Below are positions 27,594 through 42,019 of a stretch of DNA of 64,000 nt, piece by piece. The notes beneath the pieces are model-generated. The model ran no database searches. It was not told the DNA's origin and worked only from the letters and a program-made list of their open reading frames with translations. How positions within the stretch are numbered: position 1 is the stretch's first letter; each line of letters begins with the position of its first letter. The stretch lies in IMG/VR virus record IMGVR_UViG_3300028393_001967, one strand, 5' to 3'. A program made the position numbers and the translations under genes. The DNA is from a virus.

Positions 27594-27721
27594 ATATTAA
27601 AGCAAATTGTTGCACGGGCATCCCTTTGACGGGTGTTGTCGAAGCATAGCTAAACAGTTTGTTTTAATATACACATTGAGCTGACAGGGGCTGTGATGCC
27701 GCAGACAGTGTGTTTAATTAA
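27594..27721 (+). repeat. Two overlapping conserved-stem hairpin elements (family members A and B)
   Basis: ATATTAAAGCAAATTGTT...AACAGTTTGTTTTAATAT and ATACACATTG...CAGTGTGT. Confidence 0.55.
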
Positions 27722-27729
27722 ATAAGTGT

Positions 27730-27945
27730 ATGTCTAATAAACAAAAAGAATATGCTGGTAGGCTATTAAAAATAGCATCCCAGCAGGCACATCACAAACT
27801 ACCCAATGGTTCAAAAGAAGAACTATTGATTTATCAACTGGGTTTTGTTGTTGGAATTTTGTCTAGATATGCACCCAATGATATTACCATTCATCAAGAC
27901 ATTAAAATTCTTGAAGAATATTTAGGTATCAATATTAAAGAATAA
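27730..27945 (+). CDS. Hypothetical late protein
   Basis: TAAATA upstream; 71-aa ORF. Confidence 0.6.
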   Translation: MSNKQKEYAGRLLKIASQQAHHKLPNGSKEELLIYQLGFVVGILSRYAPNDITIHQDIKILEEYLGINIKE

Positions 27946-27947
27946 TT

Positions 27948-28036
27948 GGAGTGTGTTCCCTGTTGCCGGCTGTAACCCGGTAGCCTTTATTAAGCAGGGT
28001 GGCTGGCAAGTGGTTCGATTCCATCACGCTTCACCA
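27948..28036 (+). ncRNA. tRNA-like RNA with Tyr(GUA) anticodon arm but no D-arm
   Basis: 8-bp acceptor GGAGTGTG/CACGCTTC, ACCA end, T-loop TTCGATT, arm GCCGG-CTGTAAC-CCGGT. Confidence 0.7.
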
Positions 28037-28042
28037 ATTTAC

Positions 28043-28118
28043 ATCGCGGTGGACTTCTGGGTTAGGTCACTAGGCTTTCATCCTAGCTAGGCGGGTTCGA
28101 TTCCCGTCCGCGATACCA
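28043..28118 (+). tRNA. tRNA-Glu(UUC)
   Basis: Cloverleaf; loop CTTTCAT; CCA. Confidence 0.9.
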
Positions 28119-28126
28119 AAGATAAT

Positions 28127-28212
28127 GGATGTGTAGGAAAACTGGTAACCCCAGAAGACTGTAAATCTTCCGCCTTACGGCACTGTTGGTTCGACTCCAA
28201 CCGCATCCACCA
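28127..28212 (+). tRNA. tRNA-Tyr(GUA)
   Basis: Loop CTGTAAA; V-arm; CCA. Confidence 0.92.
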
Positions 28213-28220
28213 AAAGTAAT

Positions 28221-28295
28221 GGGCTGATAGTGATAATGGGAGCACAGGGGCTTTGCAAGCCTTTAGTCGGGGTTCGATCCCCCGTCGGTCCACCA
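28221..28295 (+). tRNA. tRNA-Ala(UGC)
   Basis: Loop TTTGCAA; G3:U70; CCA. Confidence 0.92.
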
Positions 28296-28302
28296 AGTTT
28301 AT

Positions 28303-28387
28303 GGATAGTAGTGTCGCTGGGCGCGAGCTGGTTTGCTAAACCGGTCTACTGGAAACGGTAACAGTTCGATTCTGTTGCTATCCACCA
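28303..28387 (+). tRNA. tRNA-Ser(GCU), 8/4 fold
   Basis: 8-bp acceptor, 4-bp T-stem, V-arm; loop TTGCTAA. Confidence 0.75.
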
Positions 28388-28394
28388 AGTTAAT

Positions 28395-28469
28395 GGTCTC
28401 GTCATATAGTGGTTATTATACCGGCCTGTCTAGTCGGATATCGGGGTTCGATTCCCCGCGGGATCGCCA
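28395..28469 (+). tRNA. tRNA-Asp(GUC)
   Basis: Loop CTGTCTA; GCCA end. Confidence 0.9.
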
Positions 28470-28478
28470 AGTTTTTAT

Positions 28479-28553
28479 TGCCGCGTAACTCAGAGGCAGA
28501 GTAATCGCTTGATAAGCGATAAGTCGACATTTCGAAATTGTCCGTGGCAACCA
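28479..28553 (+). tRNA. tRNA-Ile(GAU)
   Basis: Loop TTGATAA; T-stem with a mismatch; CCA. Confidence 0.85.
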
Positions 28554-28558
28554 ATTAT

Positions 28559-28634
28559 GCTCAGTTCGTCTATCGGTTTAGGACGCTGCCCTTTCAAGGC
28601 GGAAAGACGGGTTCGATTCCCGTACTGAGCACCA
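28559..28634 (+). tRNA. tRNA-Glu(UUC)
   Basis: Loop CTTTCAA; CCA. Confidence 0.92.
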
Positions 28635-28644
28635 TGTTTTTTGT

Positions 28645-28718
28645 TGGCGCATTGTGTAATGGTAGCACAACAGACTTTGACTCTGTTAGTCTAGGTTCGA
28701 TCCCTAGTGCGCCTGCCA
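28645..28718 (+). tRNA. tRNA-Gln(UUG)
   Basis: Loop CTTTGAC; GCCA end. Confidence 0.92.
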
Positions 28719-28725
28719 AGTTTAT

Positions 28726-28800
28726 ATCGCGTTCGTATAGTGGAAAATACACGATCCTACGAAGTTCGGAACGGTGGTTCGATTCCATCACGCGATACCA
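28726..28800 (+). tRNA. tRNA-Arg(ACG)
   Basis: Loop CTACGAA; CCA. Confidence 0.9.
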
Positions 28801-28809
28801 AAAATTTAT

Positions 28810-28885
28810 TCCATCTTAGTATTCTCGGTGAGTACCCCCGGCTGTTAACCGGAAGAGGTTGGTTCGAATCCAACAGATGGAGCCA
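28810..28885 (+). tRNA. tRNA-Asn(GUU)
   Basis: Loop CTGTTAA; GCCA end. Confidence 0.9.
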
Positions 28886-28987
28886 ATATCGAAATACACT
28901 GATTGTTTAGGAGTGGGGGATACGAACCACGTTAAACAAATAAGTCTACAAAAGCCTAAGCAATAGCGCAACAGTATATTTCAATAT
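28886..28987 (+). repeat. Conserved-stem hairpin element C
   Basis: ATATCGAAATACACTG...CAGTATATTTCAATAT. Confidence 0.6.
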
Positions 28988-28988
28988 T

Positions 28989-29063
28989 GGGGGCAGCAGT
29001 GGGCTGCGGCGTTCCCTTGCAAGGATCGTGACTAGAAGGATTCGATTTCCTCGGCCTCCACCA
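28989..29063 (+). tRNA. Atypical tRNA-Ala(UGC)
   Basis: G3:U70; loop CTTGCAA; minimal D-loop; extended anticodon stem; CCA. Confidence 0.7.
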
Positions 29064-29072
29064 AAGATAAAT

Positions 29073-29149
29073 GCACTGGTACCAGAGAGGCCTAATGGCA
29101 TGGATTGCAAATCCGTTGTTCGGGGGTTCGAATCCCTCCCAGTGCTCCA
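29073..29149 (+). tRNA. tRNA-Cys(GCA)
   Basis: Loop TTGCAAA; U73; CCA. Confidence 0.92.
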
Positions 29150-29156
29150 AGTTTAT

Positions 29157-29230
29157 GCGGGTATGATGTAATGGTAACCTGAAACCTTGCCAAGGTTTAT
29201 TCGCGAGTTCGATTCTCGCTATCCGCTCCA
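29157..29230 (+). tRNA. tRNA-Gly(GCC)
   Basis: Loop TTGCCAA; TCCA end. Confidence 0.92.
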
Positions 29231-29232
29231 AT

Positions 29233-29382
29233 TTTTGAGATAGACGATGGGATTGAGTCCCTTGTATTCTAGCGCATTGTGCTGATGCGTGACACACCAG
29301 TAGAACTGTACAAGGTCAATATAAACTCTCCCATTCGAGACAAGCCAATGAGTCCTTCAGAAAGATAGTTGGTCTCTCAAAA
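29233..29382 (+). ncRNA. ~150-nt structured RNA of unknown class
   Basis: Closing stem TTTTGAGA/TCTCAAAA; inner stems ATGGGA/TCCCAT and CCTTGTA/TACAAGG. Confidence 0.5.
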
Positions 29383-29391
29383 ACCTATAAT

Positions 29392-29467
29392 GCAACCTTA
29401 GCAAATGTGGTCATTGCGGTCGCCTGAAGAGCGATGGAAGCAGGTTCGATCCCTGCAGGTTGCACCA
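29392..29467 (+). tRNA. tRNA-Phe(GAA)
   Basis: Loop CTGAAGA; CCA. Confidence 0.9.
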
Positions 29468-29472
29468 ATTAT

Positions 29473-29547
29473 GTATCCCTAGTGTTAACGGCAGCACGAC
29501 AGTCTCCAAAACTGCTAGTCAAGGTTCGAATCCTTGGGGGTATGCCA
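29473..29547 (+). tRNA. tRNA-Trp(CCA)
   Basis: Loop CTCCAAA; GCCA end. Confidence 0.9.
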
Positions 29548-29554
29548 ATTTTAT

Positions 29555-29633
29555 CTGTGTGTAATGTCAGCCAGGTCAGACGGCTCGCCTTGGAAGTGAG
29601 AGGTCGCAGGTTCGAATCCTGCCACACAGACCA
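29555..29633 (+). tRNA. tRNA-Pro(UGG)
   Basis: Loop CTTGGAA; CCA. Confidence 0.9.
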
Positions 29634-29637
29634 ATTC

Positions 29638-29712
29638 GCCCTTTTATCCTTAATGGTAGAGGTCCTGTTTTGTAAGCAGGGTGTGTGGGTTCGATTCCTG
29701 CAAGGGGCACCA
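29638..29712 (+). tRNA. tRNA-Thr(UGU)
   Basis: Loop TTTGTAA; CCA. Confidence 0.9.
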
Positions 29713-29719
29713 AACAAAT

Positions 29720-29806
29720 GGAAGATAGGGACGCTGGGCGTCAACCGGTTTCGAAGTCCGGCCCACTCTGCAAAGGGTGACTGTTCGATTCAGTTATCTT
29801 CCTCCA
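29720..29806 (+). tRNA. tRNA-Ser(CGA), 8/4 fold
   Basis: GGAAGATA/TATCTTCC acceptor; ACTG/CAGT T-stem; V-arm with GCAA loop. Confidence 0.75.
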
Positions 29807-29815
29807 ACAGTTTAT

Positions 29816-29905
29816 GGAAGCGTGGCAGAGCCCGGTTTATTGTACCTGACTTGAAATCAGACGTGTCGTAAGGCACCGTGAGTTCGAATCTCACCGCTTC
29901 CGCCA
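29816..29905 (+). tRNA. tRNA-Ser(UGA)
   Basis: Canonical class II; loop CTTGAAA; GCCA end. Confidence 0.92.
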
Positions 29906-29910
29906 TATAT

Positions 29911-30000
29911 GGAAAATAGAAGTGCTGGGCACTAAGCAACTTGGAAAGTTGTTCCACTTGTGATGAGCAGGTGACAGTTCGATTCTGTTATTTTCCTCCA
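29911..30000 (+). tRNA. tRNA-Ser(GGA), 8/4 fold
   Basis: GGAAAATA/TATTTTCC acceptor; ACAG/CTGT T-stem; loop TTGGAAA. Confidence 0.75.
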
Positions 30001-30012
30001 CTAAATAAGTGT

Positions 30013-30756
30013 ATGAGAATACAGGAACTATTGGTTGAAACTGCCGAAGATGATCGAGCTATCTTGAGTCTTGCAGACGCCATTTACAATTATCTTCAGT
30101 CCTACGCTGATACAGAGTTGGACTATGATGAAACTGGCGTGATACACATAGGACGTATAGGTGATCTTTTTGATACTCCTATTGAGATACTGAATAGTGT
30201 GAGACTGGAAATAACACCAGATGAAGCTATAGTGGATTTGGCACGTAGACTATACGGTCGTGCTACTCCAGCAGATAGTCATTTTGGACAATGGGACCCT
30301 ATGAACAAGGCCATAAGCCTAAATGCTGATTATTTGAGTTCTAAACGTATGCGTAATGTTATTGCACACGAACTAAGACACGCTATGGATGATGCTAAAA
30401 GTCTAAATAGGGCTAATCAAAGTACACGTTATCGTACAGCAAGAAGTGTTCAGCATCAAGCAGATCAAGATGGCGCTTATCAAGCACAGCCTGCGGAGAT
30501 CAACGCTAGATTCGTTGAAGCATTAAATTTACTAGTGCCCGTGATTGCCAAACTGAGCACATTGGATTCTACTAGTTTTAGAACTAAGATGACTGCATAT
30601 CTAAACCGTGCATTTGAACTTAAAGACATTGCAGATTATTATCCAGAAAAAACAGCAAATGCTCACTATAGAAGACTGCTTCAAAGAGCTTGGGACTTTA
30701 TCAACAAAGAACTGGCTCACGTGAAATCCCAGTCCTCTGATACTGCTGACACATAA
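30013..30756 (+). CDS. HExxH zincin-like protein, putative virion internal protein
   Basis: CTAAATA upstream; MRIQELLVE; VIAHELRH...PAEINAR. Confidence 0.65.
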   Translation: MRIQELLVETAEDDRAILSLADAIYNYLQSYADTELDYDETGVIHIGRIGDLFDTPIEILNSVRLEITPDEAIVDLARRLYGRATPADSHFGQWDPMNKAISLNADYLSSKRMRNVIAHELRHAMDDAKSLNRANQSTRYRTARSVQHQADQDGAYQAQPAEINARFVEALNLLVPVIAKLSTLDSTSFRTKMTAYLNRAFELKDIADYYPEKTANAHYRRLLQRAWDFINKELAHVKSQSSDTADT

Positions 30757-30761
30757 TTTTT

Positions 30762-30835
30762 AGGTCCTTAGTTTAATGGCAGAACACTGCTTTGACTTGG
30801 CGAAGATGAAAGTTCGATTCTTTCAGGACCTACCA
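30762..30835 (+). tRNA. tRNA-Val(GAC)
   Basis: Loop TTGACTT; weak anticodon stem; CCA. Confidence 0.8.
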
Positions 30836-30891
30836 AACTCTCCCTTACATACGGAGTACAATAGGACAAGTAGTATGTAAACTAATACAGG

Positions 30892-30920
30892 TTGACAACT
30901 GACCATGATAGTTGTATAAT
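30892..30920 (+). promoter_or_regulatory. Sigma70 promoter of the tRNA-Lys unit
   Basis: TTGACA-17-TATAAT. Confidence 0.85.
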
Positions 30921-30951
30921 AGATACTTAAACAAACAAAAGAGGTAACACA

Positions 30952-30981
30952 ATGAAACGTACTAAAGGTGCTAAAATGTAG
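30952..30981 (+). CDS. Lys-rich leader peptide MKRTKGAKM
   Basis: AAGAGG RBS; 3 AAA codons in 9; followed by a switchable hairpin and two tRNA-Lys genes. Confidence 0.6.
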   Translation: MKRTKGAKM

Positions 30982-31046
30982 TGTCAACCGTTGACCCCGT
31001 ATATGGTCTAAGGTTGGCACTTTAAAGACAATTTAATATGCACAAC

Positions 31047-31121
31047 CCACTCTAAACTTTGAAGGTGAAGTCCTGCCTCTTAAGCAGAGAGAACTGAGTT
31101 CGAGTCTCAGAGAGTGGACCA
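31047..31121 (+). tRNA. tRNA-Lys(CUU)
   Basis: Loop CTCTTAA; CCA. Confidence 0.85.
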
Positions 31122-31125
31122 TATA

Positions 31126-31200
31126 CGGGGTATAATTCAATGGCTAGAATAACCGGCTTTTACCCGGTCTATCAGGGTTCGAGTCCCTGTGCCCCGACCA
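31126..31200 (+). tRNA. tRNA-Lys(UUU)
   Basis: Loop CTTTTAC; CCA. Confidence 0.92.
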
Positions 31201-31276
31201 TATAAAAACACATTATACCAACTGACAATACCGTAACTGGGAAACTAAGGTTGTGTTTTAGTGTGTTTCTATATGG
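31198..31276 (+). repeat. Conserved-stem hairpin element D
   Basis: CCATATAAAAACACATTA...TAGTGTGTTTCTATATGG. Confidence 0.7.
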
Positions 31277-31326
31277 TCTTAACAGGAGTAATTACCCTGA
31301 TCCATAATCGGGAGTCATGACCCGAT

Positions 31327-31429
31327 GAACTCGTAGTGATGGAATGGTCAAACATAGGCCTCTTATAGGGCCGGTGGAGTTAAATGCCCACTTGCAGGTT
31401 TCGAAATCCTGCCTACAATGAGTTCGCCA
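31327..31429 (+). ncRNA. tRNA-like RNA with extended bulged acceptor stem and abnormal anticodon loop
   Basis: GAACTC-GTAG/CTAC-AAT-GAGTTC-GCCA; D-loop with GG; V-arm; 9-nt T-loop. Confidence 0.6.
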
Positions 31430-31522
31430 TATATAAACATACTAAAAATACCGTTATATCACAGTTGGTGCGTAGTGCCAACCAAGCGGACAGTTGAGTG
31501 ATAGTAGTATGTTTATATATGG
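31427..31522 (+). repeat. Conserved-stem hairpin element E
   Basis: CCATATATAAACATACTA...TAGTATGTTTATATATGG, a perfect 18-bp inverted repeat. Confidence 0.75.
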
Positions 31523-31596
31523 TGATGTAGCATAGCGGCCAATGCAGCTCCTTCATACGGAAAAGATCGTGAGTTCGAGTCTCACCATCACCACCA
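31521..31596 (+). tRNA. tRNA-Met/Ile2(CAU)
   Basis: Loop TTCATAC; mismatched anticodon stem; CCA. Confidence 0.85.
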
Positions 31597-31654
31597 AGTT
31601 TCATAATGGTTTGAACTCTAAATAGATAAGTACAGTTATAACTCCAAGGCTAAT

Positions 31655-32095
31655 ATGCTGCACCTAATTACTTCTGACACAGATAATTTTTTCAACTTCT
31701 TAAATGAAGATCCTGTTCGACCTTCTATTCCTACAATGAGTAGAATTGGTGCTAATCGAGATATCTTTGTATATCGTGACGAAGAAGGTAGTGTTAAGGC
31801 AATCACTTGTGTAAGTTATCAAGACTTTGTTCCAACAACGGAACAAGAATTGTTTACAGTAAATACTGAACCCAGTGTTGCAGTGTTTTACACCATTTGG
31901 AGTTATGCTCCTGGTGCTGGCCGTTCGTTGATTTTTAAAGCAGTTGAACACATTAAGGAAAACAAGCCATCAATAAAAAGGTTTGTTACATTGAGTCCAC
32001 CAACTGATATGGCACGTAAGTTTCATATTAAAAATGGTGCAAATGTTTTCCGTAGTAATGAAGAAACTGTTAACTACGAATACATTACTGTTTAA
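31655..32095 (+). CDS. GNAT-fold hypothetical protein (malonyl-CoA decarboxylase-like motifs)
   Basis: AVFYTIWS..GAGR.LI...RFVTLSP; TAAATA upstream. Confidence 0.5.
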   Translation: MLHLITSDTDNFFNFLNEDPVRPSIPTMSRIGANRDIFVYRDEEGSVKAITCVSYQDFVPTTEQELFTVNTEPSVAVFYTIWSYAPGAGRSLIFKAVEHIKENKPSIKRFVTLSPPTDMARKFHIKNGANVFRSNEETVNYEYITV

Positions 32096-32096
32096 T

Positions 32097-32171
32097 GGGC
32101 TTTTGGTGAAATGGATATCATAGCGGTCTTCGAAACCGTTGGTGGGAGTTCGATCCTCTCAAGGCCCGCCA
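32097..32171 (+). tRNA. tRNA-Arg(UCG)
   Basis: Loop CTTCGAA; GCCA end. Confidence 0.9.
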
Positions 32172-32174
32172 CAA

Positions 32175-32339
32175 TTAAAGATTGTTGATCCAACGTAGTG
32201 CAGAATTTACGTTGGTAAAGTATTTCATTTCGAAATATGTAGAATCATATGTGTCCTTAACAACGATGCAACATACCCCGTCTAACAAGCATAGATGAAA
32301 TTGTAGACCACTTGGAGTAACGTTGTCATATGTTCTCAT
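32175..32339 (-). CDS. Small hypothetical late protein antisense to the tRNA operon
   Basis: GATAAATA late box just upstream on the minus strand; MRTYDNV... Confidence 0.55.
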   Translation of the reverse strand: MRTYDNVTPSGLQFHLCLLDGVCCIVVKDTYDSTYFEMKYFTNVNSALRWINNL

Positions 32340-32351
32340 AAAAATATTTAT

Positions 32352-32426
32352 CTCGCTGTAGTACAATGGATAGTACCACTCACTCCTAACGAGTTAATAG
32401 GGGTTCGATTCCCTTCGGCGAGACCA
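32352..32426 (+). tRNA. tRNA-Arg(CCU)
   Basis: Loop CTCCTAA; CCA. Confidence 0.88.
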
Positions 32427-32448
32427 AATCAAATTAGACTTTTTAGGT

Positions 32449-32519
32449 GTGACTATGTTGTAATGGTAGCAACCTAGACTGTGACTCTGGTAGTACGGGT
32501 TCGAATCCCGTTAGTCACC
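32449..32519 (+). tRNA. tRNA-His(GUG) without encoded G-1 or CCA
   Basis: Loop CTGTGAC; C73; flanked by ACTTTTTAGG/CCTAAAAAGT. Confidence 0.88.
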
Positions 32520-32533
32520 CCTAAAAAGTTTAT

Positions 32534-32610
32534 GCCCCGTTACGCTAATTGGTAGTGCGGATTCTCTCAAAAGGAGTTGGATGTCTGTTCGAATCAGACA
32601 CGGGGTACCA
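32534..32610 (+). tRNA. tRNA-Leu(CAA), short variable region
   Basis: Loop CTCAAAA; A73; CCA; no V-arm. Confidence 0.8.
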
Positions 32611-32622
32611 TATAAATACACA

Positions 32623-33126
32623 ATGAAACTGCTAGACTTATTACTCGAATCCAATATAGATTCCCTATTAGAAGAATTTTGGGCACAATGTACACCTGTG
32701 CAATTACAATATTATTTTGTACAGGACAACTGCTATGGTGCTAGCCAGGACCTAATGCAGTTTTTAGATAAACAAAAAGGTATTCGTAATGCAGAGATTG
32801 TTCCTATTGGTAGAATAGTAAATGGTAAAAAGTCTATGGGCTGGTTTAGGGCCGATGTAGCAGATACAAGCCTAGATGCATTTACACGAGATGATGTTGC
32901 CAAACTACGTAGTCAAGGTTTAGATCCACGTAAATCTCAAGATCGAGTTGCCTATATAACTAACAACAACCTAACTGAAGAGTTTTGTTGGATTCCACAT
33001 AGTTGGGTAGAAATACGTGGACGTATACTAGATCCCAGCGGTTTCTACAAAGATGGCAAGAGCGGACAGTTTGATCGTATGGTCAAAGATAAAACTAATC
33101 TCACATCTAGATATCAATATTTCTAA
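32623..33126 (+). CDS. Hypothetical protein, putative virion internal protein
   Basis: TATAAATA at 32611; MKLLDLLLE; NCY...HSWVE...ILDP suggests a transglutaminase-like C/H/D triad. Confidence 0.6.
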   Translation: MKLLDLLLESNIDSLLEEFWAQCTPVQLQYYFVQDNCYGASQDLMQFLDKQKGIRNAEIVPIGRIVNGKKSMGWFRADVADTSLDAFTRDDVAKLRSQGLDPRKSQDRVAYITNNNLTEEFCWIPHSWVEIRGRILDPSGFYKDGKSGQFDRMVKDKTNLTSRYQYF

Positions 33127-33127
33127 T

Positions 33128-33202
33128 CTGGCGTTCGTATAGTGGAAAATACAGGAAGCTTCTACCTTCTAAACAGCGGTTCGATTCCGTTACGCCAGAC
33201 CA
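33128..33202 (+). tRNA. tRNA-Arg(UCU), second copy
   Basis: Loop CTTCTAC; CCA. Confidence 0.9.
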
Positions 33203-33212
33203 TATAACCTTA

Positions 33213-33297
33213 GCCCTGGTGGTGGAATTGGTAGACACGCAGCGTTGAGGTCGCTGTGCCGAAAGGCTTGGGAGTTCGAGTCTCCCCCAGGGCACCA
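33213..33297 (+). tRNA. tRNA-Leu(GAG)
   Basis: Class II; loop TTGAGGT; CCA. Confidence 0.93.
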
Positions 33298-33354
33298 AAA
33301 TTAATGATACAAAAAGACATTGACATTCATAGTTAAATACGTATAATAATATAT

Positions 33355-33467
33355 GCGGCTGTGAGTGGAATATAGCAGACCTCCCGCTTGACCCATAGTC
33401 AAGAATGGGGACGGGGCAAGGACATAGTCATTTGCTTTTGCGGGTGCAAGACCTGCCAGCCGTACCA
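33355..33467 (+). ncRNA. tRNA-Leu-like RNA whose anticodon loop is replaced by a hairpin/pseudoknot
   Basis: GCGGCTG/CAGCCGT-ACCA; insert CTTGAC-CCATA-GTCAAG-AATGGG; own promoter at 33320. Confidence 0.7.
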
Positions 33468-33520
33468 GATTTTAAATACTTGTTGACAAGGTGCAATAAG
33501 TAGTGTATAGTAAGTATTAA

Positions 33521-33856: not shown

Positions 33857-33863
33857 AGAATAT

Positions 33864-36319: not shown

Positions 36320-37860
36320 CAACTATTCAATTAAAGAAGAAACTTAATTTTGGTGGCCGTCGGGTGGGACTAATCATCCCGCCTAGTCCCTTTCTGCTTG
36401 ACGAACGTGTCTTTGTAAGTCTAGGAATTTTGCGAGTTGCTGCTAGCCTTGAACAACAAGGAGTTGATGTTGGTGTTGTAGATCTCAGTGGTGTAAGTAA
36501 CTATTTGGAAGCACTTGATAGTTACGTTGAAACAGCAGACATCGAGTGGATTGGTATTACCTGCACTACTCCACAATTGCCAGCAGCAGTAAGGGTAGCT
36601 ACCCGTATTAGAAAAATACGGCCTAATCTACGTATTGTGCTTGGAGGCCCGCACGTTACACTAACTTACAGCGCAGTTAAGGTAGAAGAAAAAGCCGGAG
36701 TAATTGATGGTCGTGCTCGTAAAGCAGCGAGATTACTTGAAAGTTATTTTGATGTATTGGTATCAGGAGATGGAGAACTAGCAGTATTCGAATGTTTCAA
36801 ATCTGATTGTCCTAAAATGGTAGACGGTGACGATATGCGTGGTGATTTCTTTATGTCTAATGAACAGTATGAAGAACTTCCCCGCCCTGCAAGACATTTG
36901 GTTGATTTGAATACGTATCATTACAGCATTGAAGGGTTCCCCGCAACAAGTTTGATTGCACAGTTGGGATGTCCATTTAACTGCGGTTTTTGTGGAGGAC
37001 GAAATAGTAGAAGCCTACGTATTATTCGCACCCGCAGTGAATGGAGCATTGTTGACGAAGTGCGTTGGTTATATGAAACATATGGTTATACTGGTTTTAT
37101 GTTTTATGATGATGAACTAAACGTCAATAAAAGTTTTGTCAAATTGATGAACGACATTTATGACTTGCAACAGGAATTAGGTGTCGAGTTTAGACTACGT
37201 GGATTTATTAAAGCAGAATTGTTTACTGAAGAACAAGCGGAAGCAATGTACAGAGCTGGTTTCCGATGGATACTGAGCGGATTTGAATCCGCTGACCCTC
37301 GTATGCTGATCAACATTGACAAGATGGCCACACTGGAAGACAATACTCGTGTTGTTGAAATTGCTCACAAGTATGGACTAAAAGTCAAAGCATTGATGAG
37401 TGTTGGTCATCCTGGTGAAAGCGAAGAAAGTATTATGTGTATTCGTGACTGGCTGATCAAAATGAAAATTGATGACTTTGATTGTACAGTGATCACTACA
37501 TATCCAGGCACCCCATACTATGACCTAGCAGTACCTGATCCAGTAGAAAAAGGTGTTTGGACATACACGCATCGTAAAACAGGCGACAAGTTACACTCTT
37601 ATGAATTAGATCATACTGTAACGGCCGATTACTACAAAGGCGACCCTAATGGTGGTTACACTGCCTATGTGTTTACTGACAATTTGAGTGCCAAAAAGAT
37701 TGTGGAACTTCGCGACCTAGTAGAAAAAGACGTTCGAGCAGCATTAAACATTCCTTTTAATCCAGGTGGTGTAGCAGTAAAGTTTGAGCATAGTATGGGA
37801 CAGGGATTACCAGATTCCATATATCGCGAGTCTTTGGCTCTTGACATAGCAACTAAATGA
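36316..37860 (+). CDS. B12-binding radical SAM protein
   Basis: N-terminal cobalamin-binding-like domain (LGGPHVT); CPFNCGFC; FYDDE. Confidence 0.9.
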   Translation: MTTIQLKKKLNFGGRRVGLIIPPSPFLLDERVFVSLGILRVAASLEQQGVDVGVVDLSGVSNYLEALDSYVETADIEWIGITCTTPQLPAAVRVATRIRKIRPNLRIVLGGPHVTLTYSAVKVEEKAGVIDGRARKAARLLESYFDVLVSGDGELAVFECFKSDCPKMVDGDDMRGDFFMSNEQYEELPRPARHLVDLNTYHYSIEGFPATSLIAQLGCPFNCGFCGGRNSRSLRIIRTRSEWSIVDEVRWLYETYGYTGFMFYDDELNVNKSFVKLMNDIYDLQQELGVEFRLRGFIKAELFTEEQAEAMYRAGFRWILSGFESADPRMLINIDKMATLEDNTRVVEIAHKYGLKVKALMSVGHPGESEESIMCIRDWLIKMKIDDFDCTVITTYPGTPYYDLAVPDPVEKGVWTYTHRKTGDKLHSYELDHTVTADYYKGDPNGGYTAYVFTDNLSAKKIVELRDLVEKDVRAALNIPFNPGGVAVKFEHSMGQGLPDSIYRESLALDIATK

Positions 37861-37920
37861 TGCTATAATTAATACATAGCAGCAAATGATGGAGTTGGCT
37901 GCTAACAAGTTCTTTAAAAA
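37841..37920 (+). promoter_or_regulatory. Sigma70 promoter plus boxB-like hairpin and rrn-type boxA
   Basis: TTGACA-17-TATAAT; TAGCAGC...GCTGCTA; GTTCTTTAAAAA at 37909. Confidence 0.7.
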
Positions 37921-37935
37921 GATATAGTAAATTTT

Positions 37936-38019
37936 GCGAGAGTGGTGGAATGGTATACACAGCAGACTTAAAATCTGCCGCTGAAAGGCATACGGGTTCG
38001 AGTCCCGTCTCTCGCACCA
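37936..38019 (+). tRNA. tRNA-Leu(UAA)
   Basis: Class II; loop CTTAAAA; CCA. Confidence 0.93.
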
Positions 38020-38096
38020 TATATAAACACATTAAAACACGCCCCTAGTAGCAGTAGCGAATCAAGGGTGGAAGGTTGAGTGTGTTTATATATGGT
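38016..38096 (+). repeat. Conserved-stem hairpin element F
   Basis: ACCATATATAAACACATT...AGTGTGTTTATATATGGT. Confidence 0.75.
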
Positions 38097-38100
38097 TTTA

Positions 38101-38225
38101 GTTAGGAAGGTGGGATTAAAGGTGTCCATCCTCTAAGGAGTAGGGCCTGTATGTAATACAGGAAGTATTAGGTACCCCGTAACTGGTAAGGCCGACATCC
38201 CTTTTAGCGTAAAAGCACACCTAAC
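38101..38225 (+). ncRNA. ~125-nt structured RNA of unknown class
   Basis: Closing GTTAGG/CCTAAC; GGGAT/ATCCC; CCTGTAT-GTA-ATACAGG. Confidence 0.45.
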
Positions 38226-38234
38226 ATTTTATTT

Positions 38235-38311
38235 GTCCCGTTCATCTAGTGGCCAAGGATAGTATCCTTTTCGGGATATTCACAGAGGTTCGACTCCTCT
38301 ACGGGACGCCA
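38235..38311 (+). tRNA. tRNA-Glu-like gene with an 8-nt anticodon loop
   Basis: Glu-type body; arm GTATC-CTTTTCGG-GATAT; GCCA end. Confidence 0.7.
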
Positions 38312-38324
38312 TATAGTTTTTATT

Positions 38325-38416
38325 GCCAGCGAGACTTGGAAGTCAGAGAGGTCTTATAAGCCTTTTAGCGCCAGATTAGCGTTCTTGAGTGGGTCCGATT
38401 CCCACCGCTGGTACCA
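38325..38416 (+). tRNA. Atypical tRNA with UAU anticodon (Ile-like), long V-arm
   Basis: 1-nt acceptor/D linker; 4-nt D-loop; 6-bp anticodon stem; loop CTTATAA; CCA. Confidence 0.7.
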
Positions 38417-38418
38417 AG

Positions 38419-38651
38419 TTTTGTAGTGTTAGCAAGAGAATGTCACGCTATACGGTATTCTTCGAAGGTACTGTATAGTAGAAGGCAAGCGGGTTCGATG
38501 CCCGGCTGGTCGCTTGAGTGGGACCGGCGATAGATGGAATCCACGCTGGACCGGTATCCCAAGTAACAAGTCCTGGAAGAACTCGACGTAAGGAAGTCCG
38601 GCTCTGTACGTCTAAACACTAGTGATAAACCTGAGGACACTAGACTACAAA
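38419..38651 (+). ncRNA. ~230-nt structured RNA of unknown class
   Basis: Closing stem TTTGTAGT/ACTACAAA; long UUCG hairpin; T-loop-like CGGG-TTCGATG-CCCG. Confidence 0.55.
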
Positions 38652-38720
38652 TTCATTATTTCGTTCTTGCTATTGACGCACAATAAATATTGTGTTATAA
38701 TAGTTTTTTAGTTAGTATTT

Positions 38721-38803
38721 GCGCTGGTGGTGGAATGGTAGACACGCTGGTCTTAGAAGCCAGTGCCTAGTGCGTGAGAGTTCGAGTCTCTCCCGGCGCA
38801 CCA
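38721..38803 (+). tRNA. tRNA-Leu(UAG)
   Basis: Class II; loop CTTAGAA; CCA. Confidence 0.93.
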
Positions 38804-38834
38804 CAATTTTGTTTAACATTTATAGAAAGTACTT

Positions 38835-39062
38835 ATGATTCAACCTAAATTGGTCCGCACAATGAACGACACTGAAAAATGTGTTGAGATGATTGGTAAT
38901 CGTTTTGATCTTGTTCTTGTTGCGGCAATTCGCACTCGTGAATTGAAACGTGGCAGTCGTCCTCTAGTGGACAATAACAACAACAGTTCCGCTATTGTTA
39001 CTGCTCTTAAGGAAATTGAAAATGGCAAAGTTGGTATTGAATATTTGAGGAAAGTACGATGA
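38835..39062 (+). CDS. rpoZ: RNA polymerase omega subunit homologue
   Basis: CVEMIGNRFDLVLVAAIRTREL...IVTALKEIENGKV matches the omega consensus NRFxLVxxAAxRARQL...ALxEI. Confidence 0.85.
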   Translation: MIQPKLVRTMNDTEKCVEMIGNRFDLVLVAAIRTRELKRGSRPLVDNNNNSSAIVTALKEIENGKVGIEYLRKVR

Positions 39063-39244
39063 GTAAGGGCAGTCGACCACGACCATTTAGTGTTAGCCAA
39101 GAAGAACTTGGTAATAAGTTTGATGCAATTTTTGGAGAGAAACTTAAGAAACCACAATATGTTCCTCCCCCATTGCCAGAAATTGAAAAACAAGAAAGTA
39201 AAATTAGTTGGGTAACATCAACTAATGATAGCAATAAGGAATAA
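39059..39244 (+). CDS. Hypothetical protein
   Basis: ATGA overlap; MSKGSRPRPFSV. Confidence 0.6.
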   Translation: MSKGSRPRPFSVSQEELGNKFDAIFGEKLKKPQYVPPPLPEIEKQESKISWVTSTNDSNKE

Positions 39245-39245
39245 T

Positions 39246-39416
39246 ATGTCAGAAGAAATTCAAGTAGAACAGGTAGAACCCACTGCTAAAAAGTGTGGTT
39301 GCGGTCGTAGCCCATTGGGCGTATGCATTGGTTGGCACGCACTAGGTGAAGACGAATTCCGTCAAGCACTTGCTGTATATGAATCTAATGTTATTCCTAA
39401 GAATGATTTGATTTAA
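39246..39416 (+). CDS. CDGSH-type Fe-S/Zn-finger-like small protein
   Basis: CGCGRSPLGVCIGWH resembles CxCxxS...CDGSH; AAGGA RBS. Confidence 0.65.
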   Translation: MSEEIQVEQVEPTAKKCGCGRSPLGVCIGWHALGEDEFRQALAVYESNVIPKNDLI

Positions 39417-39421
39417 ACACG

Positions 39422-39495
39422 GCCCTACTAGTACAATGGTAGTACACTGGTTTTGTAATCCTGTGATGGCAGTTCGATTCTGTCGTGGGGCACCA
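39422..39495 (+). tRNA. tRNA-Thr(UGU), second copy
   Basis: Loop TTTGTAA; two mismatches in the anticodon stem; CCA. Confidence 0.8.
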
Positions 39496-39496
39496 A

Positions 39497-39705
39497 GGGA
39501 AACCCGGTTTACACTTTTACCGTTATAAAAGTGGGTGGGGCAGTCACCATAGAGAGCGCCGGGTGTGCAGTGCATTGACCATTAGTTCCCCATTTAAGGG
39601 ATACTAGAACGCATTGGGTGAGGACTAACGCCTTTCCAGAAGAAGAAATGTTATGGACGGGGCAACCACCCAGTTCAGGGCTCTTGTGGTGAGAGTAGCT
39701 GGACA
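39497..39705 (+). ncRNA. ~200-nt GC-rich structured RNA of unknown class
   Basis: Hairpins CACTTTTA/TAAAAGTG, CAGTGC/GCATTG and TAGTTCCC/GGGATACTA; no ORF. Confidence 0.45.
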
Positions 39706-39839
39706 CTTTATTATAATGCATTGACTATGCGGACTTCATCCCAGTAGTAGCAATACTGCCCAAATCGTCTTTAAAGGTGCCTGTGGGTCGACTTAGTCAA
39801 AGCAGGTGAACATTTGTCGTTAGTGTGTTATAATAAAGT
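39705..39839 (+). repeat. Conserved-stem hairpin element G
   Basis: ACTTTATTATAATGCATTGAC...GTTAGTGTGTTATAATAAAGT with G:U pairs. Confidence 0.7.
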
Positions 39840-39841
39840 AT

Positions 39842-39915
39842 GCGGGATTAGTTTAATGGTAAAACAGCAGATTTCCAATCTTCGGTCAAGAGTTCGATTC
39901 TCTTATCCCGCTCCA
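39842..39915 (+). tRNA. tRNA-Gly(UCC)
   Basis: Loop TTTCCAA; TCCA end. Confidence 0.9.
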
Positions 39916-39930
39916 AGATTAAGATAGGTA

Positions 39931-40443
39931 ATGATGAAAGAAAAGTTTAAGCAAGCATTCATGGATACAGCCCGGCGGTTCGCAGAACTTAGCCACGCTC
40001 GTAGACTAAAAGTTGGTGCTATTGTAGTCAAAGATGATCGCATCATTAGCATTGGTTACAATGGTATGCCCGCAGGTTGGGATAACAACTGTGAAGACCA
40101 AGTATGGGATAGTGGTGCAGGTGGCTGGTTAGATCCAGAAGAGTTTGATGCCAAGTATCCATATGAAGGTTGGCACGAAGGTGCTCAACGTGATGTACGT
40201 TACGGATTAAAAACTAAACCAGAGGTATTACATGCTGAATCAAACGCGATTGCGAAATTGGCTAAGTGTGGTGAGTCCGGATTGGGGGCAACCTTATTCG
40301 TTACTCACAGTCCTTGTATTCAGTGTGCTAAACTTATTTTACAGTCTGGCATTAGTAACGTTTATTATAATGAAAATTATAGAGATGATTCAGGCTTGAC
40401 ATTCCTTGAGAAGTCAGGTATAATAGTAGAACAAGTTAAGTAA
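39931..40443 (+). CDS. dCMP deaminase
   Basis: KVGA, GYNG, HAESNAI and SPCIQC. Confidence 0.92.
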   Translation: MMKEKFKQAFMDTARRFAELSHARRLKVGAIVVKDDRIISIGYNGMPAGWDNNCEDQVWDSGAGGWLDPEEFDAKYPYEGWHEGAQRDVRYGLKTKPEVLHAESNAIAKLAKCGESGLGATLFVTHSPCIQCAKLILQSGISNVYYNENYRDDSGLTFLEKSGIIVEQVK

Positions 40444-40450
40444 GATTTTT

Positions 40451-40525
40451 GCGTCGTTAGTTCAGCGGTAGAACTCCATCCTTACACGGTGGCTGTCGGC
40501 GGTTCGATCCCGTCACGACGTACCA
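40451..40525 (+). tRNA. tRNA-Val(UAC)
   Basis: Loop CTTACAC; CCA. Confidence 0.9.
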
Positions 40526-40532
40526 GTTTATT

Positions 40533-40609
40533 CGGAGTGTAGCTCAGTCTGGTAGAGCACTGCGTTTGGGACGCAGGGGCCCAAGGTTCGAATCCTTGTA
40601 CTCCGACCA
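40533..40609 (+). tRNA. tRNA-Pro(UGG), second copy
   Basis: Loop TTTGGGA; CCA. Confidence 0.93.
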
Positions 40610-40611
40610 AG

Positions 40612-40804
40612 AACGTTCTGTCTAATCAGCAGATAGTATGACCCGTACGATGAGAAGTGCTGTGATAAGCAAGGGTGGTAGTCTTCTTACCAAAAGGCCG
40701 CTAGCAATGCGAGAACGGTCCCTGTCGGGGAGCGGGTGGAAGGTACGTGTGATGACTCCAAAGGTCTGATGTACTATAATTACCGCCGGGGGATGCAGAG
40801 CATT
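40612..40804 (+). ncRNA. ~190-nt structured RNA of unknown class
   Basis: Closing GTTCTGT/GCAGAGC; ACCCGT/GCGGGT; GC-rich; no ORF. Confidence 0.45.
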
Positions 40805-40830
40805 TATTTTAAAATATTTTTAAAAAAGTG

Positions 40831-40901
40831 TTGACAAACAGTAAGAAGTTTGCTACAATATATACATACACTAAGCAATTAGCGTATACGTTCTTTAAAA
40901 A
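40831..40901 (+). promoter_or_regulatory. rRNA-like promoter plus boxB-like hairpin and boxA
   Basis: A-tract, TTGACA-17-TACAAT, TACACTAA-GCAA-TTAGCGTA, then GTTCTTTAAAAA at 40890. Confidence 0.75.
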
Positions 40902-40916
40902 ATCGAGTATAAGAAG

Positions 40917-41031
40917 TTCTTATACAACTGCCCACTAAGGCGTAGGCCACGCTGATATGGTTAGAGCATAGCATTGTCTATTGGCAATGTCCACAGGTTC
41001 AAATCCTGTAGGTGTGCAGTTGTATAAGAAT
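40917..41031 (+). ncRNA. tRNA-like cloverleaf without CCA, mounted on a 15-bp stem
   Basis: TTCTTATACAACTGC/GCAGTTGTATAAGAA; T-arm ACAGG-TTCAAAT-CCTGT; D-loop with GG. Confidence 0.55.
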
Positions 41032-41032
41032 T

Positions 41033-41926
41033 TAAGGGTAGTTTAATATCCTGTAGGCGGTTCGCCGTCGACGAAGAATAACTGTGGTGACACAGCCAAA
41101 GGAGGTATGCCTACATAACTCCGCTAGTAATAGTTCGTTTAGACAAGCCTGCTCACTGTCGCGAGACAGCGATCACTGATAAGACCGGTGGTTGTAACAA
41201 TGACGCTGGATGTTGTGGAAAGAACCTTTGCTTACAAGCCCGCAAGGGGAACTTGAGTAGATGGAAAGTAACAGGTGGTGCTGACTTCACAACTAAACCA
41301 GTCCAGTTAATTAGTATGAGAAAGGGTAGTGTATTTGTCCGAAGGGTTGCACCTAAGGGCTTGTATGCAGTTTGAGTGGTTAGTGGAGGCTGTCAGCAAT
41401 GGCGGGGTCGACACAGATCGCAAAAGACGACTGAGTAGTTCGCAAGACAAAAGGTACGTGGTGTGTTGTATTATGTAGTCCAAAAGATTATGTAGCAACT
41501 GAGTCAGCACATCGCAGTAGGTTTACAGTAGCACAATGGTAGTGCAATTCCCTTTTAAGGAATAGGCTGTTGGTTCAAATCCAACCTTATATAAAATGCA
41601 AAGACTGACTCGGTCGTATGTGAAAGACATCTAATACTTGGCTCGTAAGAGAACTAAGTCTAATTAAACTCGCAAGGTGAGATTAGTTTATACAGGATGT
41701 TTCGTAAGGTGTTAGCGCACTTGAATGGCTCGCAAGGTCAACGGAATGGAAAGTGTAGAATAGCATACGGCGACGTGACTACTGCCTGTCACTAAAAACG
41801 GCGATGTTGACAACAGACTAGGATACCTAGCAATAGGGCTTAGTGGAAGTCGGAAGAAAGTAGACTCGCAAGGTTTACAATAATGTCCGAGGTGTTGTTC
41901 GGTAAGGATGTATTCTCAGTCCTCCA
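41033..41926 (+). ncRNA. Giant (~900-nt) structured ncRNA, GOLLD-like, with embedded tRNA-Lys-like domain
   Basis: No + strand ORF; raised GC; many GNRA tetraloop hairpins (CGCAAG x5, GCGAGA, TAGCAATA); tRNA-cluster context. Confidence 0.7.
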
Positions 41927-42019
41927 TTATATTAAAGTACATTTAATTTATACATAGTGTAGATATTAAGGCAGTGACACCGCTGTGATTAGAAACGTCA
42001 TAAGTGTGCTTCAATATAA
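41927..42019 (+). repeat. Conserved-stem hairpin element H
   Basis: TTATATTAAAGTACATTTA...TAAGTGTGCTTCAATATAA. Confidence 0.65.

What the first reader, a model, noticed from the sequence alone, without database searches (positions are those of the whole stretch)
27594..42019. Family of at least eight conserved-stem, variable-loop hairpin RNAs interleaved with the tRNAs
Seen at 27594-27670, 27664-27721, 28886-28987, 31198-31276, 31427-31522, 38016-38096, 39705-39839 and 41927-42019. Each has 10-21-bp terminal arms with consensus TATAWAAAYACATT...AGTGTGTTTWTATA, closing 27-90-nt interiors that mostly differ. D and E share ATACCGT; F and G share CCC(T)AGTAGYAG. Arm deviations are largely G:U on the + strand, implying RNA-level pairing. 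Several stems extend into a neighbouring tRNA's CCA or 5' end. Inference: a shared protein-binding or processing handle presenting variable cargo (guide/antisense or decoy RNAs), or dedicated RNase III-like processing stems. I know of no named family matching this.
Basis: partly seen in the sequence, partly recalled or inferred. Interest (0 to 1): 0.75.

Follow-up and report, generated by a model that had tools for sequence, protein, structure and literature searches.

The report
RNase III-type stem cassettes between phage tRNAs
Between the tRNA genes of this uncultured giant lake phage lie small RNA modules that share one conserved 17-19 bp closing stem, shaped like a host RNase III cut site, and each encloses a different small RNA (several conserved and folded) of unknown function.

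Summary
D, E and F are near-identical members of one family. H, C and A are significant divergent members in a covariance-model search. G is a member by orthology: its cargo sits in canonical arms in a relative. B keeps only the upper stem.

The family is large. I found 123 distinct hairpins in IMG/VR phage contigs, and in five large relatives the arm motif occurred only as a few arm pairs. The stem is an RNA helix on the tRNA-sense strand: 94% of cells paired, 11 of 18 pairs with compensatory changes, and G.U far commoner than A.C. In 76 of 123 cases it starts exactly at the CCA of the upstream tRNA.

The interiors are not junk. They have 50% GC, several cargo classes are conserved and covary internally, and cargos are swapped between slots.

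The upper stem matches the phage T7 R1.1 / E. coli RNase III determinants: a UA/UG distal box, invariant A-U at proximal-box position 2, and a weak pair next to the predicted cut.

Most likely this is a cut-here adaptor for host RNase III that frees the neighbouring tRNAs and a stem-capped stable small RNA. Cleavage and cargo function are unproven. No Rfam family or paper describes it. This scan has noted the same family in other genomes.

The parts
31198..31276 (+). Cassette D. The stem starts at the CCA (31198-31200) of tRNA-Lys(UUU). It has an A.C mismatch at the 8th bp and a 45-nt cargo. Predicted RNase III cuts, by analogy only: 31204|31205 and 31271|31272.
   Evidence: Fold z -4.3. CM 63.7 bits. 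The cargo is identical in L011 and recurs in L240 and L239 with changed arms.
31427..31522 (+). Cassette E. An 18-bp stem runs from the CCA of an unannotated tRNA-like RNA to G1-G2 of tRNA-Met (31521). The cargo is 62 nt.
   Evidence: Fold z -5.3. CM 48.3 bits. The same slot in L011 holds an unrelated cargo.
38016..38096 (+). Cassette F. An 18-bp stem starts at the discriminator base and CCA of tRNA-Leu(UAA). The cargo is ACACGCCCCUAGUAGCAGUAGCGAAUCAAGGGUG. Predicted cuts, by analogy only: 38023|38024 and 38090|38091.
   Evidence: Fold z -6.0. CM 63.3 bits. The cargo is conserved in at least 12 contexts with covarying arms.
39705..39839 (+). Cassette G. It has a 21-bp diverged closing stem and a 93-nt multi-hairpin cargo, and it abuts tRNA-Gly (39842).
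   Evidence: Fold z -3.3. Not hit by the CM. The ortholog in L160 has canonical arms and a compensatory change in an inner hairpin.
41927..42019 (+). Cassette H, a divergent member directly after the 3' end of the GOLLD RNA.
   Evidence: CM 36.5 bits, E 5e-6. Fold z -3.7. L130 and L240 also place a cassette right after the GOLLD 3' end.
28886..28987 (-). Cassette C, after tRNA-Asn. The arms pair fully only on the minus strand, and the cargo carries an antisense T-arm. It is probably a flipped copy.
   Evidence: CM 30.1 bits on minus vs 22.0 on plus. 13/13 pairs on minus vs 11/13 on plus.
27594..27670 (+). Cassette A, a divergent member at the head of the array. It lies downstream of the terminator-like hairpin at about 27447 and has no CCA/UGG clamp.
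   Evidence: CM 27.8 bits, E 5.5e-4. Fold z -4.3. Conserved in L005 with a U.G to C-G change.
27664..27721 (+). Element B. It keeps only the upper half of the stem (ACACAUUG / CAGUGUGU). This is a partial or doubtful member.
   Evidence: Fold z -1.5. No CM hit. The L005 counterpart is an 8-bp stem with a GUAA tetraloop.
32435..32532 (+). Same architecture with different sequence: tRNA-His enclosed by a 13-bp AU-rich leader-trailer stem.
   Evidence: Inverted repeat I4. Fold z -4.3. The stem is conserved with a compensatory change in L149 and L166.
40914..41033 (+). Same architecture: a tRNA-Leu-like RNA enclosed by a closing stem of about 18 bp, upstream of GOLLD.
   Evidence: Inverted repeat I2. 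Fold z -6.3.
29903..29912 (+). A CCATATATGG junction between two tRNA-Ser genes. It has the outer ends of the stem with nothing inside, so it looks like an empty slot.
   Evidence: Read from the sequence with the tRNA ends.

Best explanation
Each element is an RNA cassette inside the long tRNA-array transcripts. A 17-19 bp AU-rich closing helix has consensus (N)CCAUAUAAAAACACAUU ... AGUGUGUUUCUAUAUGG(UA). It pairs the CCA end of the upstream RNA with the last leader bases and first bases of the downstream RNA, and it encloses a cargo RNA of about 30-120 nt.

The helix most likely serves as a recognition and cut site for the host's double-strand-specific RNase III. By analogy with T7 R1.1, staggered cuts would fall about 11 bp below the top of the stem. 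These cuts would:
- leave the upstream tRNA with a trailer of about 4 nt, for exonuclease trimming back to CCA;
- leave the downstream tRNA with a leader of about 3 nt, for RNase P;
- release the cargo capped by a 10-11 bp stem with a 2-nt 3' overhang, a form expected to be stable.

Shown: the helix, its covariation, its polarity, its anchoring at CCA, cargo conservation and cargo swapping.
Inferred: the enzyme, the cut positions and the stability of the product.
Unknown: what the cargos do.
For: 1. The helix is real and acts at the RNA level.
- 94.4% of cells are paired and 11 of 18 pairs have changes on both sides; 0 of 500 shuffles reach this.
- In 123 distinct hairpins oriented by the nearest tRNA, G.U wobbles greatly outnumber A.C at every position but one.
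- In cargo-matched sets the arms change by compensatory substitutions.

2. The match to the E. coli RNase III determinants described in PMC1540722, counted on the table:
- distal box: U-A in 121/123, then U.G in 78/123;
- proximal-box position 2: A-U in 123/123, never G-C;
- proximal-box position 3: A-U in 117/123;
- proximal-box position 4: a weak pair or mismatch (A.C 59, A-U 18, C.C 8, U.C 5), as in natural R1.1, which has a U.C pair there.
- The top of the stem, CAUU(C)/(G)AGUG, equals T7 R1.1 CAUUC-GCAA-GAGUG.

3. 76 of 123 stems start exactly at a tRNA's CCA and 35 abut the next tRNA. Cuts would therefore leave only very short trailers and leaders.

4. Other RNAs of this array have their own long AU-rich closing stems of different sequence: tRNA-His and a tRNA-Leu-like RNA. 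This argues for a structural requirement, namely double-stranded RNA.

5. Precedent: phage T5's annotated stable RNAIII lies in its tRNA cluster. It folds with a 12-bp closing stem and a 2-nt 3' overhang.
Against: - No cleavage data exist.
- The host is unknown, so E. coli rules may not apply.
- Proximal-box position 1 is A-U in 112/123, not the preferred G-C.
- 22/123 have G-C at position 4, which suppresses catalysis in E. coli.
- Arm sequence is more conserved than a purely structural signal needs. This leaves room for a sequence-specific partner or for homogenisation by recombination.
- No RNase III gene was found in five large relatives, three of them complete, so the enzyme would have to be the host's.
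- The resemblance to R1.1 covers only about 10 bp and could be partly coincidence.
Confidence: 0.55

Rival explanations
1. The intact stem is a sequence-specific handle for a phage or host protein other than RNase III, such as a Ro/Rsr-like, chaperone or packaging factor. The mature RNA keeps the whole stem, and the protein presents or uses the cargo.
For: - Arm sequence is nearly invariant at many positions across about 100 cargo classes.
- One conserved mismatch keeps a 3'-arm C in 94/123.
- About 10% of cargos carry a T-loop motif, as bacterial Y RNAs do.
- One of five large relatives encodes a TROVE protein.
Against: - TROVE is absent from four of five large relatives, and the one genome that has it had no exact arm motif.
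- No Y-RNA or other Rfam match at E <= 1.
- Arms do covary when cargo is held constant.
- Differently sequenced closing stems serve tRNA-His and a tRNA-Leu-like RNA.
Confidence: 0.15
2. The hairpin is a CCA mask. By pairing the 3' CCA of selected tRNAs, mostly Lys-UUU, Gln-UUG and Glu-UUC, it delays their maturation or charging, or shields the end from exonucleases or end-targeting toxins. The interior is secondary.
For: - 76/123 stems begin exactly at a CCA.
- 68 of those 76 upstream tRNAs have U34, and 35 are tRNA-Lys(UUU).
Against: - Tandem cassettes, and cassettes after GOLLD or other non-tRNA RNAs, lack a tRNA CCA.
- Cargos are conserved and structured.
- The tRNA bias is not corrected for shared ancestry.
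Confidence: 0.1
3. The primary role is at the DNA level. The inverted-repeat arms are recombination or mobility sites (like PeSL cassettes, MITEs or integron attC sites) that shuffle cassettes, and the RNA hairpin is a by-product.
For: - tRNA order is heavily rearranged among relatives, and breakpoints fall in the arms.
- The slot after tRNA-Lys(UUU) holds 33 cargo classes in 35 hairpins.
- 12 of 16 multi-member cargo classes occur in different contexts.
- C looks flipped.
- An empty-looking CCATATATGG junction lies at 29903-29912.
Against: - G.U is favoured over A.C on the transcribed strand, and polarity relative to the tRNAs is fixed.
- In five large relatives the arm motif occurs only as a few arm pairs rather than dispersed through the genome, with control counts of 0.
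- Cargos differ, unlike MITE copies.
- The arms contain no promoter or terminator, which PeSLs have.
Recombination at the arms probably happens but does not explain their RNA-level conservation.
Confidence: 0.08
4. These are chance AT-rich inverted repeats or neutral spacers without function.
For: Most interiors are only weakly more structured than shuffles (mean z -0.5), and 86 of 102 cargo classes were singletons in this sample.
Against: - Covariation in the stem.
- CM E-values down to 1e-12.
- More than 119 contigs carry the arm.
- Interior GC is 50%, against 40% for the window and 29% for the arms.
- Conserved cargos exist.
Confidence: 0.02

Closest known systems
Phage T7 RNase III processing signals (R1.1 and the minimal substrate uR1.1; PMC1540722)
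   Same: - A family of related hairpins at junctions of a phage polycistronic transcript.
- The stem top CAUU(C)/(G)AGUG is identical to R1.1.
- UA/UG distal box, A-U at proximal-box positions 2-3, and a weak pair next to the expected cut.
   Different: - The T7 sites separate mRNAs and end in a small loop. Here the stems sit in tRNA arrays, are clamped to CCA ends and enclose 30-120 nt cargos.
- Proximal-box position 1 differs.
- The CM built on this family finds nothing in T7.
- Cleavage was not shown here.
Phage T5 stable RNAs RNAIII and RNAIV, annotated in NC_005859 as 'stable RNA with unknown functions', and phage T4 rnaC/rnaD
   Same: - Non-tRNA stable RNAs encoded inside a phage tRNA cluster and abutting tRNAs.
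- T5 RNAIII folds with a 12-bp closing stem, a 2-nt 3' overhang and multi-hairpin cargo.
- T4 rnaC carries a T-arm, like about 10% of the cargos here.
   Different: - No sequence relationship: CM E-values are 0.44 in T5 and 0.125 in T4.
- The T5 and T4 RNAs do not share one constant stem and are not clamped to a CCA.
RNase III processing stalks of rRNA operons (leader-trailer helices around 16S and 23S rRNA; established knowledge)
   Same: A long helix formed by flanking sequences encloses a stable RNA and is cut to release it from a multi-gene stable-RNA transcript.
   Different: Here the enclosed RNAs are small, diverse and exchangeable, and one stem sequence is reused many times per genome.
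PeSL cassettes of T4-type phages (PMC2839356, PMC4122927)
   Same: A repeated conserved motif containing a stem-loop flanks exchangeable modules and coincides with shuffling breakpoints between related phages.
   Different: PeSLs are promoter-plus-terminator motifs flanking protein genes. These arms have no promoter or terminator pattern and show RNA-level covariation.

Membership tests
E. coli-type RNase III substrate (uR1.1 consensus, PMC1540722) | A continuous helix of at least 11 bp above the cut, and about two turns in all | tested here: met
   17-19 bp stems with 94.4% of cells paired.
E. coli-type RNase III substrate (uR1.1 consensus, PMC1540722) | Distal box: a U-A pair followed by a U.G pair | tested here: met
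   U-A in 121/123. The second pair is U.G in 78, C-G in 28 and U-A in 17 (rule).
E. coli-type RNase III substrate (uR1.1 consensus, PMC1540722) | Proximal-box position 2 is A-U or U-A, never G-C or C-G; position 3 is A-U | tested here: met
   Position 2 is A-U in 123/123. Position 3 is A-U in 117/123.
E. coli-type RNase III substrate (uR1.1 consensus, PMC1540722) | Proximal-box position 1 is G-C | tested here: not met
   A-U in 112/123, G-C in 5 and G.U in 5.
E. coli-type RNase III substrate (uR1.1 consensus, PMC1540722) | Proximal-box position 4 is weak (A-U or U-A; U.C in natural R1.1), not G-C | tested here: inconclusive
   A.C 59, A-U 18, C.C 8 and U.C 5, but G-C in 22 of 123.
E. coli-type RNase III substrate (uR1.1 consensus, PMC1540722) | Cleaved by RNase III, giving 2-nt 3' overhangs | not testable with these tools
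   No transcript-end data, and the host is unknown.
Any Rfam 15 family | Covariance-model match | tested here: not met
   No match on any hairpin at the gathering score or at E <= 1.
Bacterial/phage Y RNA (YrlA type) | A stem bound by Ro/Rsr, with a TROVE protein encoded in the genome, plus a tRNA-like module | tested here: not met
   TROVE is in 1 of 5 large relatives. A T-loop is in only about 10% of cargos. No Rfam Y-RNA match.
Phage T5 RNAIII/RNAIV-type stable RNAs | Sequence or profile homology | tested here: not met
   CM R1 gives E 0.44 in T5. The architecture is alike.
MITE / integron attC-type DNA element | Acts as DNA: copies dispersed or one per cassette, no preference for the transcribed strand, and an associated transposase or integrase | tested here: inconclusive
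   Polarity is fixed and G.U is favoured on the transcribed strand. In five large relatives the motif occurs only as a few arm pairs. No recombinase search was done.

The most novel reading that the evidence does not exclude
The cassettes are a universal 'expression adaptor'. It lets these phages carry and exchange an arsenal of more than 100 different functional small RNAs, for example aptamer-like decoys or modulators of host defence, tRNA metabolism or translation. Each would be released as a stem-capped stable RNA. The slot after tRNA-Lys(UUU) would be a hot spot for swapping them.
Probability: 0.35. Interest if true: 0.8.

Novelty: new variant of a known kind. Interest (0 to 1): 0.6.

Why it matters
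Stable non-tRNA RNAs in phage tRNA clusters are still annotated with no known function (T5 RNAIII and RNAIV; T4 rnaC and rnaD are named only as small stable RNAs). This family gives that old puzzle a large comparative data set.

- It has one constant stem with an explicit, testable prediction of who cuts it and where.
- It holds about a hundred cargo RNAs, several of which are conserved, covary and move between genomes.
- If the stem is confirmed as an RNase III adaptor, it would define how giant phages mature their 40-plus-gene RNA operons.
- The cargos would form a new catalogue of phage small RNAs to screen for function.
- The stem could also serve as a natural scaffold for expressing small RNAs.

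Tried and rejected
- Rfam at the gathering score and at E <= 1 on the window, on 11 related loci and on one cargo pair: only tRNA, GOLLD and tmRNA matched.
- Megablast of the region against cultured phages: only single tRNAs matched.
- No whole genome is held for this window.
- Antisense/guide test: longest complementary matches of 123 interiors to their own loci equal shuffled controls.
- rRNA mimic or antisense test against E. coli 16S, 23S and 5S: equal to controls.
- An RNAduplex scan of the whole window timed out with no result.
- Bona fide tRNAs inside family arms: none.
- RNase III gene in five large relatives: none.
- TROVE/Rsr in the same five: one.
- CM R1 on T5, T4 and T7: no significant hit.
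- The distant relative L006 has no family members.
- Literature searches for phage tRNA-array hairpins found no description. The T4 review PMC3014915 does not mention RNase III or RNase P.
- The idea that one cargo (L035 9274-9382) is a circularly permuted tRNA was considered. I dropped it because its T-arm is imperfect and there is only one example.
- The shared heptamer in D and E is not above chance.

Full report
**What is there**

The window comes from an uncultured large phage. Cultured phages match it only at single tRNAs. It carries 44 tRNA genes, a GOLLD RNA with an embedded tRNA-Lys, and a permuted tmRNA. All lie on the plus strand behind a series of consensus sigma-70 promoters.

D, E and F share arms CCATATAWAAACAYAYT / AGTRTGTTTWTATATGG. 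These arms begin at the CCA of the upstream RNA. In E they end in the first two bases of tRNA-Met.

**Size of the family**

An exact search for one arm in IMG/VR found 26 contigs.

A script scan of the fetched tRNA-bearing loci gave 204 hairpins, of which 123 were distinct after filtering. Oriented by the nearest tRNA, the consensus is (N)CCAUAUAAAAACACAUU - 29 to 123 nt - AGUGUGUUUCUAUAUGG(UA).

In five large relatives, three of them complete genomes, the arm motif occurs only as a few arm pairs, and control counts are zero. No Rfam 15 family matches any hairpin, even at E <= 1. My literature searches found no description.

**Membership of the eight elements**

A covariance model from 43 members was run over the whole window with filters off.

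| Element | Bits | Note |
|---|---|---|
| D | 63.7 | |
| F | 63.3 | |
| E | 48.3 | |
| H | 36.5 | |
| C | 30.1 | better on the minus strand (22.0 on plus) |
| A | 27.8 | |

Nothing else scored below E about 3. G is missed, but its cargo recurs in L160 inside canonical arms, with a compensatory change in an inner hairpin. G is therefore a member whose arms have drifted by paired changes. B keeps only the upper 8 bp; its counterpart in L005 is an 8-bp stem with a GUAA loop. C pairs fully only on the minus strand and carries an antisense T-arm, so it is probably a flipped copy.

**The stem is an RNA helix on the tRNA-sense strand**

On the 43-sequence alignment, 94.4% of cells are paired and 11 of 18 pairs show changes on both sides. 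No shuffle out of 500 reaches the observed values, and sliding the partner strand destroys the signal.

In the 123-member table, G.U wobbles far outnumber A.C at every position except one. At that position, the 8th bp from the CCA, a 3'-arm C is kept in 94 of 123. It faces A (59), G (22), C (8) or U (5).

When cargo is held constant, the arms change by compensatory substitutions. One example is ACACA/UGUGU changing to GUGUA/UGCAC.

**Context**

- 76 of 123 stems start exactly at the CCA of a tRNA: Lys-UUU 35, Gln-UUG 9, Glu-UUC 6, Leu-UAG 6. 68 of the 76 have U34.
- 35 abut the next tRNA: Met 14, His 5.
- Others follow another cassette in tandem, an unannotated tRNA-like RNA, or the 3' end of GOLLD, as H does here and as in L130 and L240.
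- The tRNA bias is not corrected for shared ancestry.

**Cargo**

Interiors have 50% GC, against 29% in the arms and 40% in the window. They are only modestly more structured than shuffles on average (mean z -0.5).

They fall into 102 classes in this sample, but several classes are clearly conserved RNAs:
- The GCAACUGGACGCAGGGG class occurs in 29 distinct contigs, always inside family arms. It has covarying inner helices; 18 of 31 predicted pairs have double changes.
- The F cargo recurs in at least 12 contexts, and the D cargo in three relatives.
- The only motifs enriched across classes are a T-loop (GGUUCGAAUCC, 9-12 of 102 classes against 0.4 expected) and GUAGC.
- No true tRNA sits inside family arms.

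Cargos are exchanged between slots:
- The slot after tRNA-Lys(UUU) holds 33 classes in 35 hairpins.
- 12 of 16 multi-member classes occur in different contexts.
- Alignments between the window and its closest relatives break off inside the arms of E and F.

I found no excess complementarity of cargos to their own loci, and no likeness or complementarity to E. coli rRNA.

**Mechanism**

Notes from earlier runs of this scan on other genomes pointed to T7 R1.1 and to T5 stable RNAs. I tested both leads.

*T7 R1.1.* The T7 R1.1 upper stem reads AAGGUCAUUC-GCAA-GAGUGGCCUU. The family's stem top, CAUU(C)/(G)AGUG, is identical to its top.

I used the determinants described in PMC1540722 and counted down from the U-A / U.G distal box:
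- Proximal-box position 2 is A-U in 123/123.
- Position 3 is A-U in 117/123.
- Position 4, next to the scissile bond, is the conserved weak pair. R1.1 has a U.C pair there.
- Position 1 does not fit (A-U, not G-C).
- 22 members have G-C at position 4.

By this analogy the cuts fall after CCAUAUA on the 5' arm and two bases beyond the partner of position 4 on the 3' arm. This would leave a 4-nt trailer and a 3-nt leader on the neighbouring tRNAs, and a cargo capped by 10-11 bp with a 2-nt 3' overhang. The cut positions are inference only.

*Other support.*
- tRNA-His and a tRNA-Leu-like RNA in this array have their own AU-rich closing stems of unrelated sequence. The tRNA-His stem shows a compensatory change in relatives. 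This fits a requirement for double-stranded RNA.
- T5 RNAIII, an annotated stable RNA in the T5 tRNA cluster, folds with a 12-bp closing stem and a 2-nt 3' overhang.
- The family model does not match T5, T4 or T7. These are analogues, not members.
- No RNase III gene was found in five large relatives, so the enzyme would be the host's. The host is unknown.

**Rivals**

- A sequence-specific protein handle fits the strong arm conservation. It is weakened by arm covariation and by the patchy presence of a Ro-like protein.
- A CCA-masking role fits the anchoring and the tRNA bias. It does not explain cassettes without an upstream tRNA, nor conserved cargos.
- A DNA-level recombination role probably operates as a side effect, given the swapping, the flipped C and the empty-looking CCATATATGG junction at 29903-29912. 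It does not explain strand-specific wobble pairing.
- Chance is excluded.

**Verdict**

This is a real, large and uncatalogued family of stem-clamped RNA cassettes in phage tRNA arrays. It is most likely a set of RNase III-type processing adaptors that release stable small RNAs. The general kind is known (RNase III processing hairpins; stable RNAs in phage tRNA clusters). The reusable constant stem, the CCA clamp and the exchangeable conserved cargos are new. This scan has already noted the same family in several other genomes, so this window adds members rather than a first sighting.

Noticed in passing
window 41458-41922 (upstream part from about 41033): GOLLD RNA (Rfam 201.8 bits) with an embedded tRNA-Lys(UUU) at 41521-41593. 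Its 3' end runs straight into cassette H. In L130 the GOLLD 3' end reads CACCA before the cassette.
   Followed up: partly
window 43795-44220: Permuted (two-piece) tmRNA with tag ANDSVYALAA, behind its own consensus promoter at 43757.
   Followed up: no
window 32435-32532: tRNA-His is enclosed by a 13-bp leader-trailer stem, conserved with a compensatory change in L149 and L166. It appears to encode CCU rather than CCA after the discriminator base.
   Followed up: partly
window 31277-31426: An unannotated CCA-ending tRNA-like RNA lies at 31326-31426. It has a long acceptor stem, a long variable arm and an odd 6-nt anticodon loop CUUAUA. It is preceded by a conserved ACAGGAGUAAUUACC box and a possible mini-ORF (AUG ACC CGA UGA). 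The same unit precedes cassettes in L011, L013, L035 and L112.
   Followed up: partly
window 27947-28040 and 28988-29065: Two further CCA-ending tRNA-like RNAs with T-arms that ARAGORN does not call. Rfam gives only weak tRNA-Sec and tmRNA similarity.
   Followed up: no
related loci; window 31198-31276: The slot directly after tRNA-Lys(UUU) is a hot spot: 33 different cargo classes in 35 hairpins. 68 of 76 tRNAs followed by a cassette have U at position 34. This is not corrected for shared ancestry.
   Followed up: partly
window 29231-29390, 32172-32350, 33350-33470, 38420-38640, 39496-39700, 40610-40790: ORF-free, GC-richer stretches between tRNAs that look like further structured RNAs without the family stem. 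None matches Rfam.
   Followed up: no
L001 2690-2810, L005 5586-5706 and 27 other contigs: A conserved RNA of about 85 nt (core GGAUACCURGCAACUGGACGCAGGGGCUAUCC) with several covarying helices. It is always carried inside family arms, has no Rfam match, and is absent from this window.
   Followed up: partly
T5 NC_005859 30284-30389 (L248 1285-1390, minus strand): T5 stable RNAIII folds with a 12-bp closing stem and a 2-nt 3' overhang, as expected of an RNase III product. It abuts tRNA-His.
   Followed up: partly
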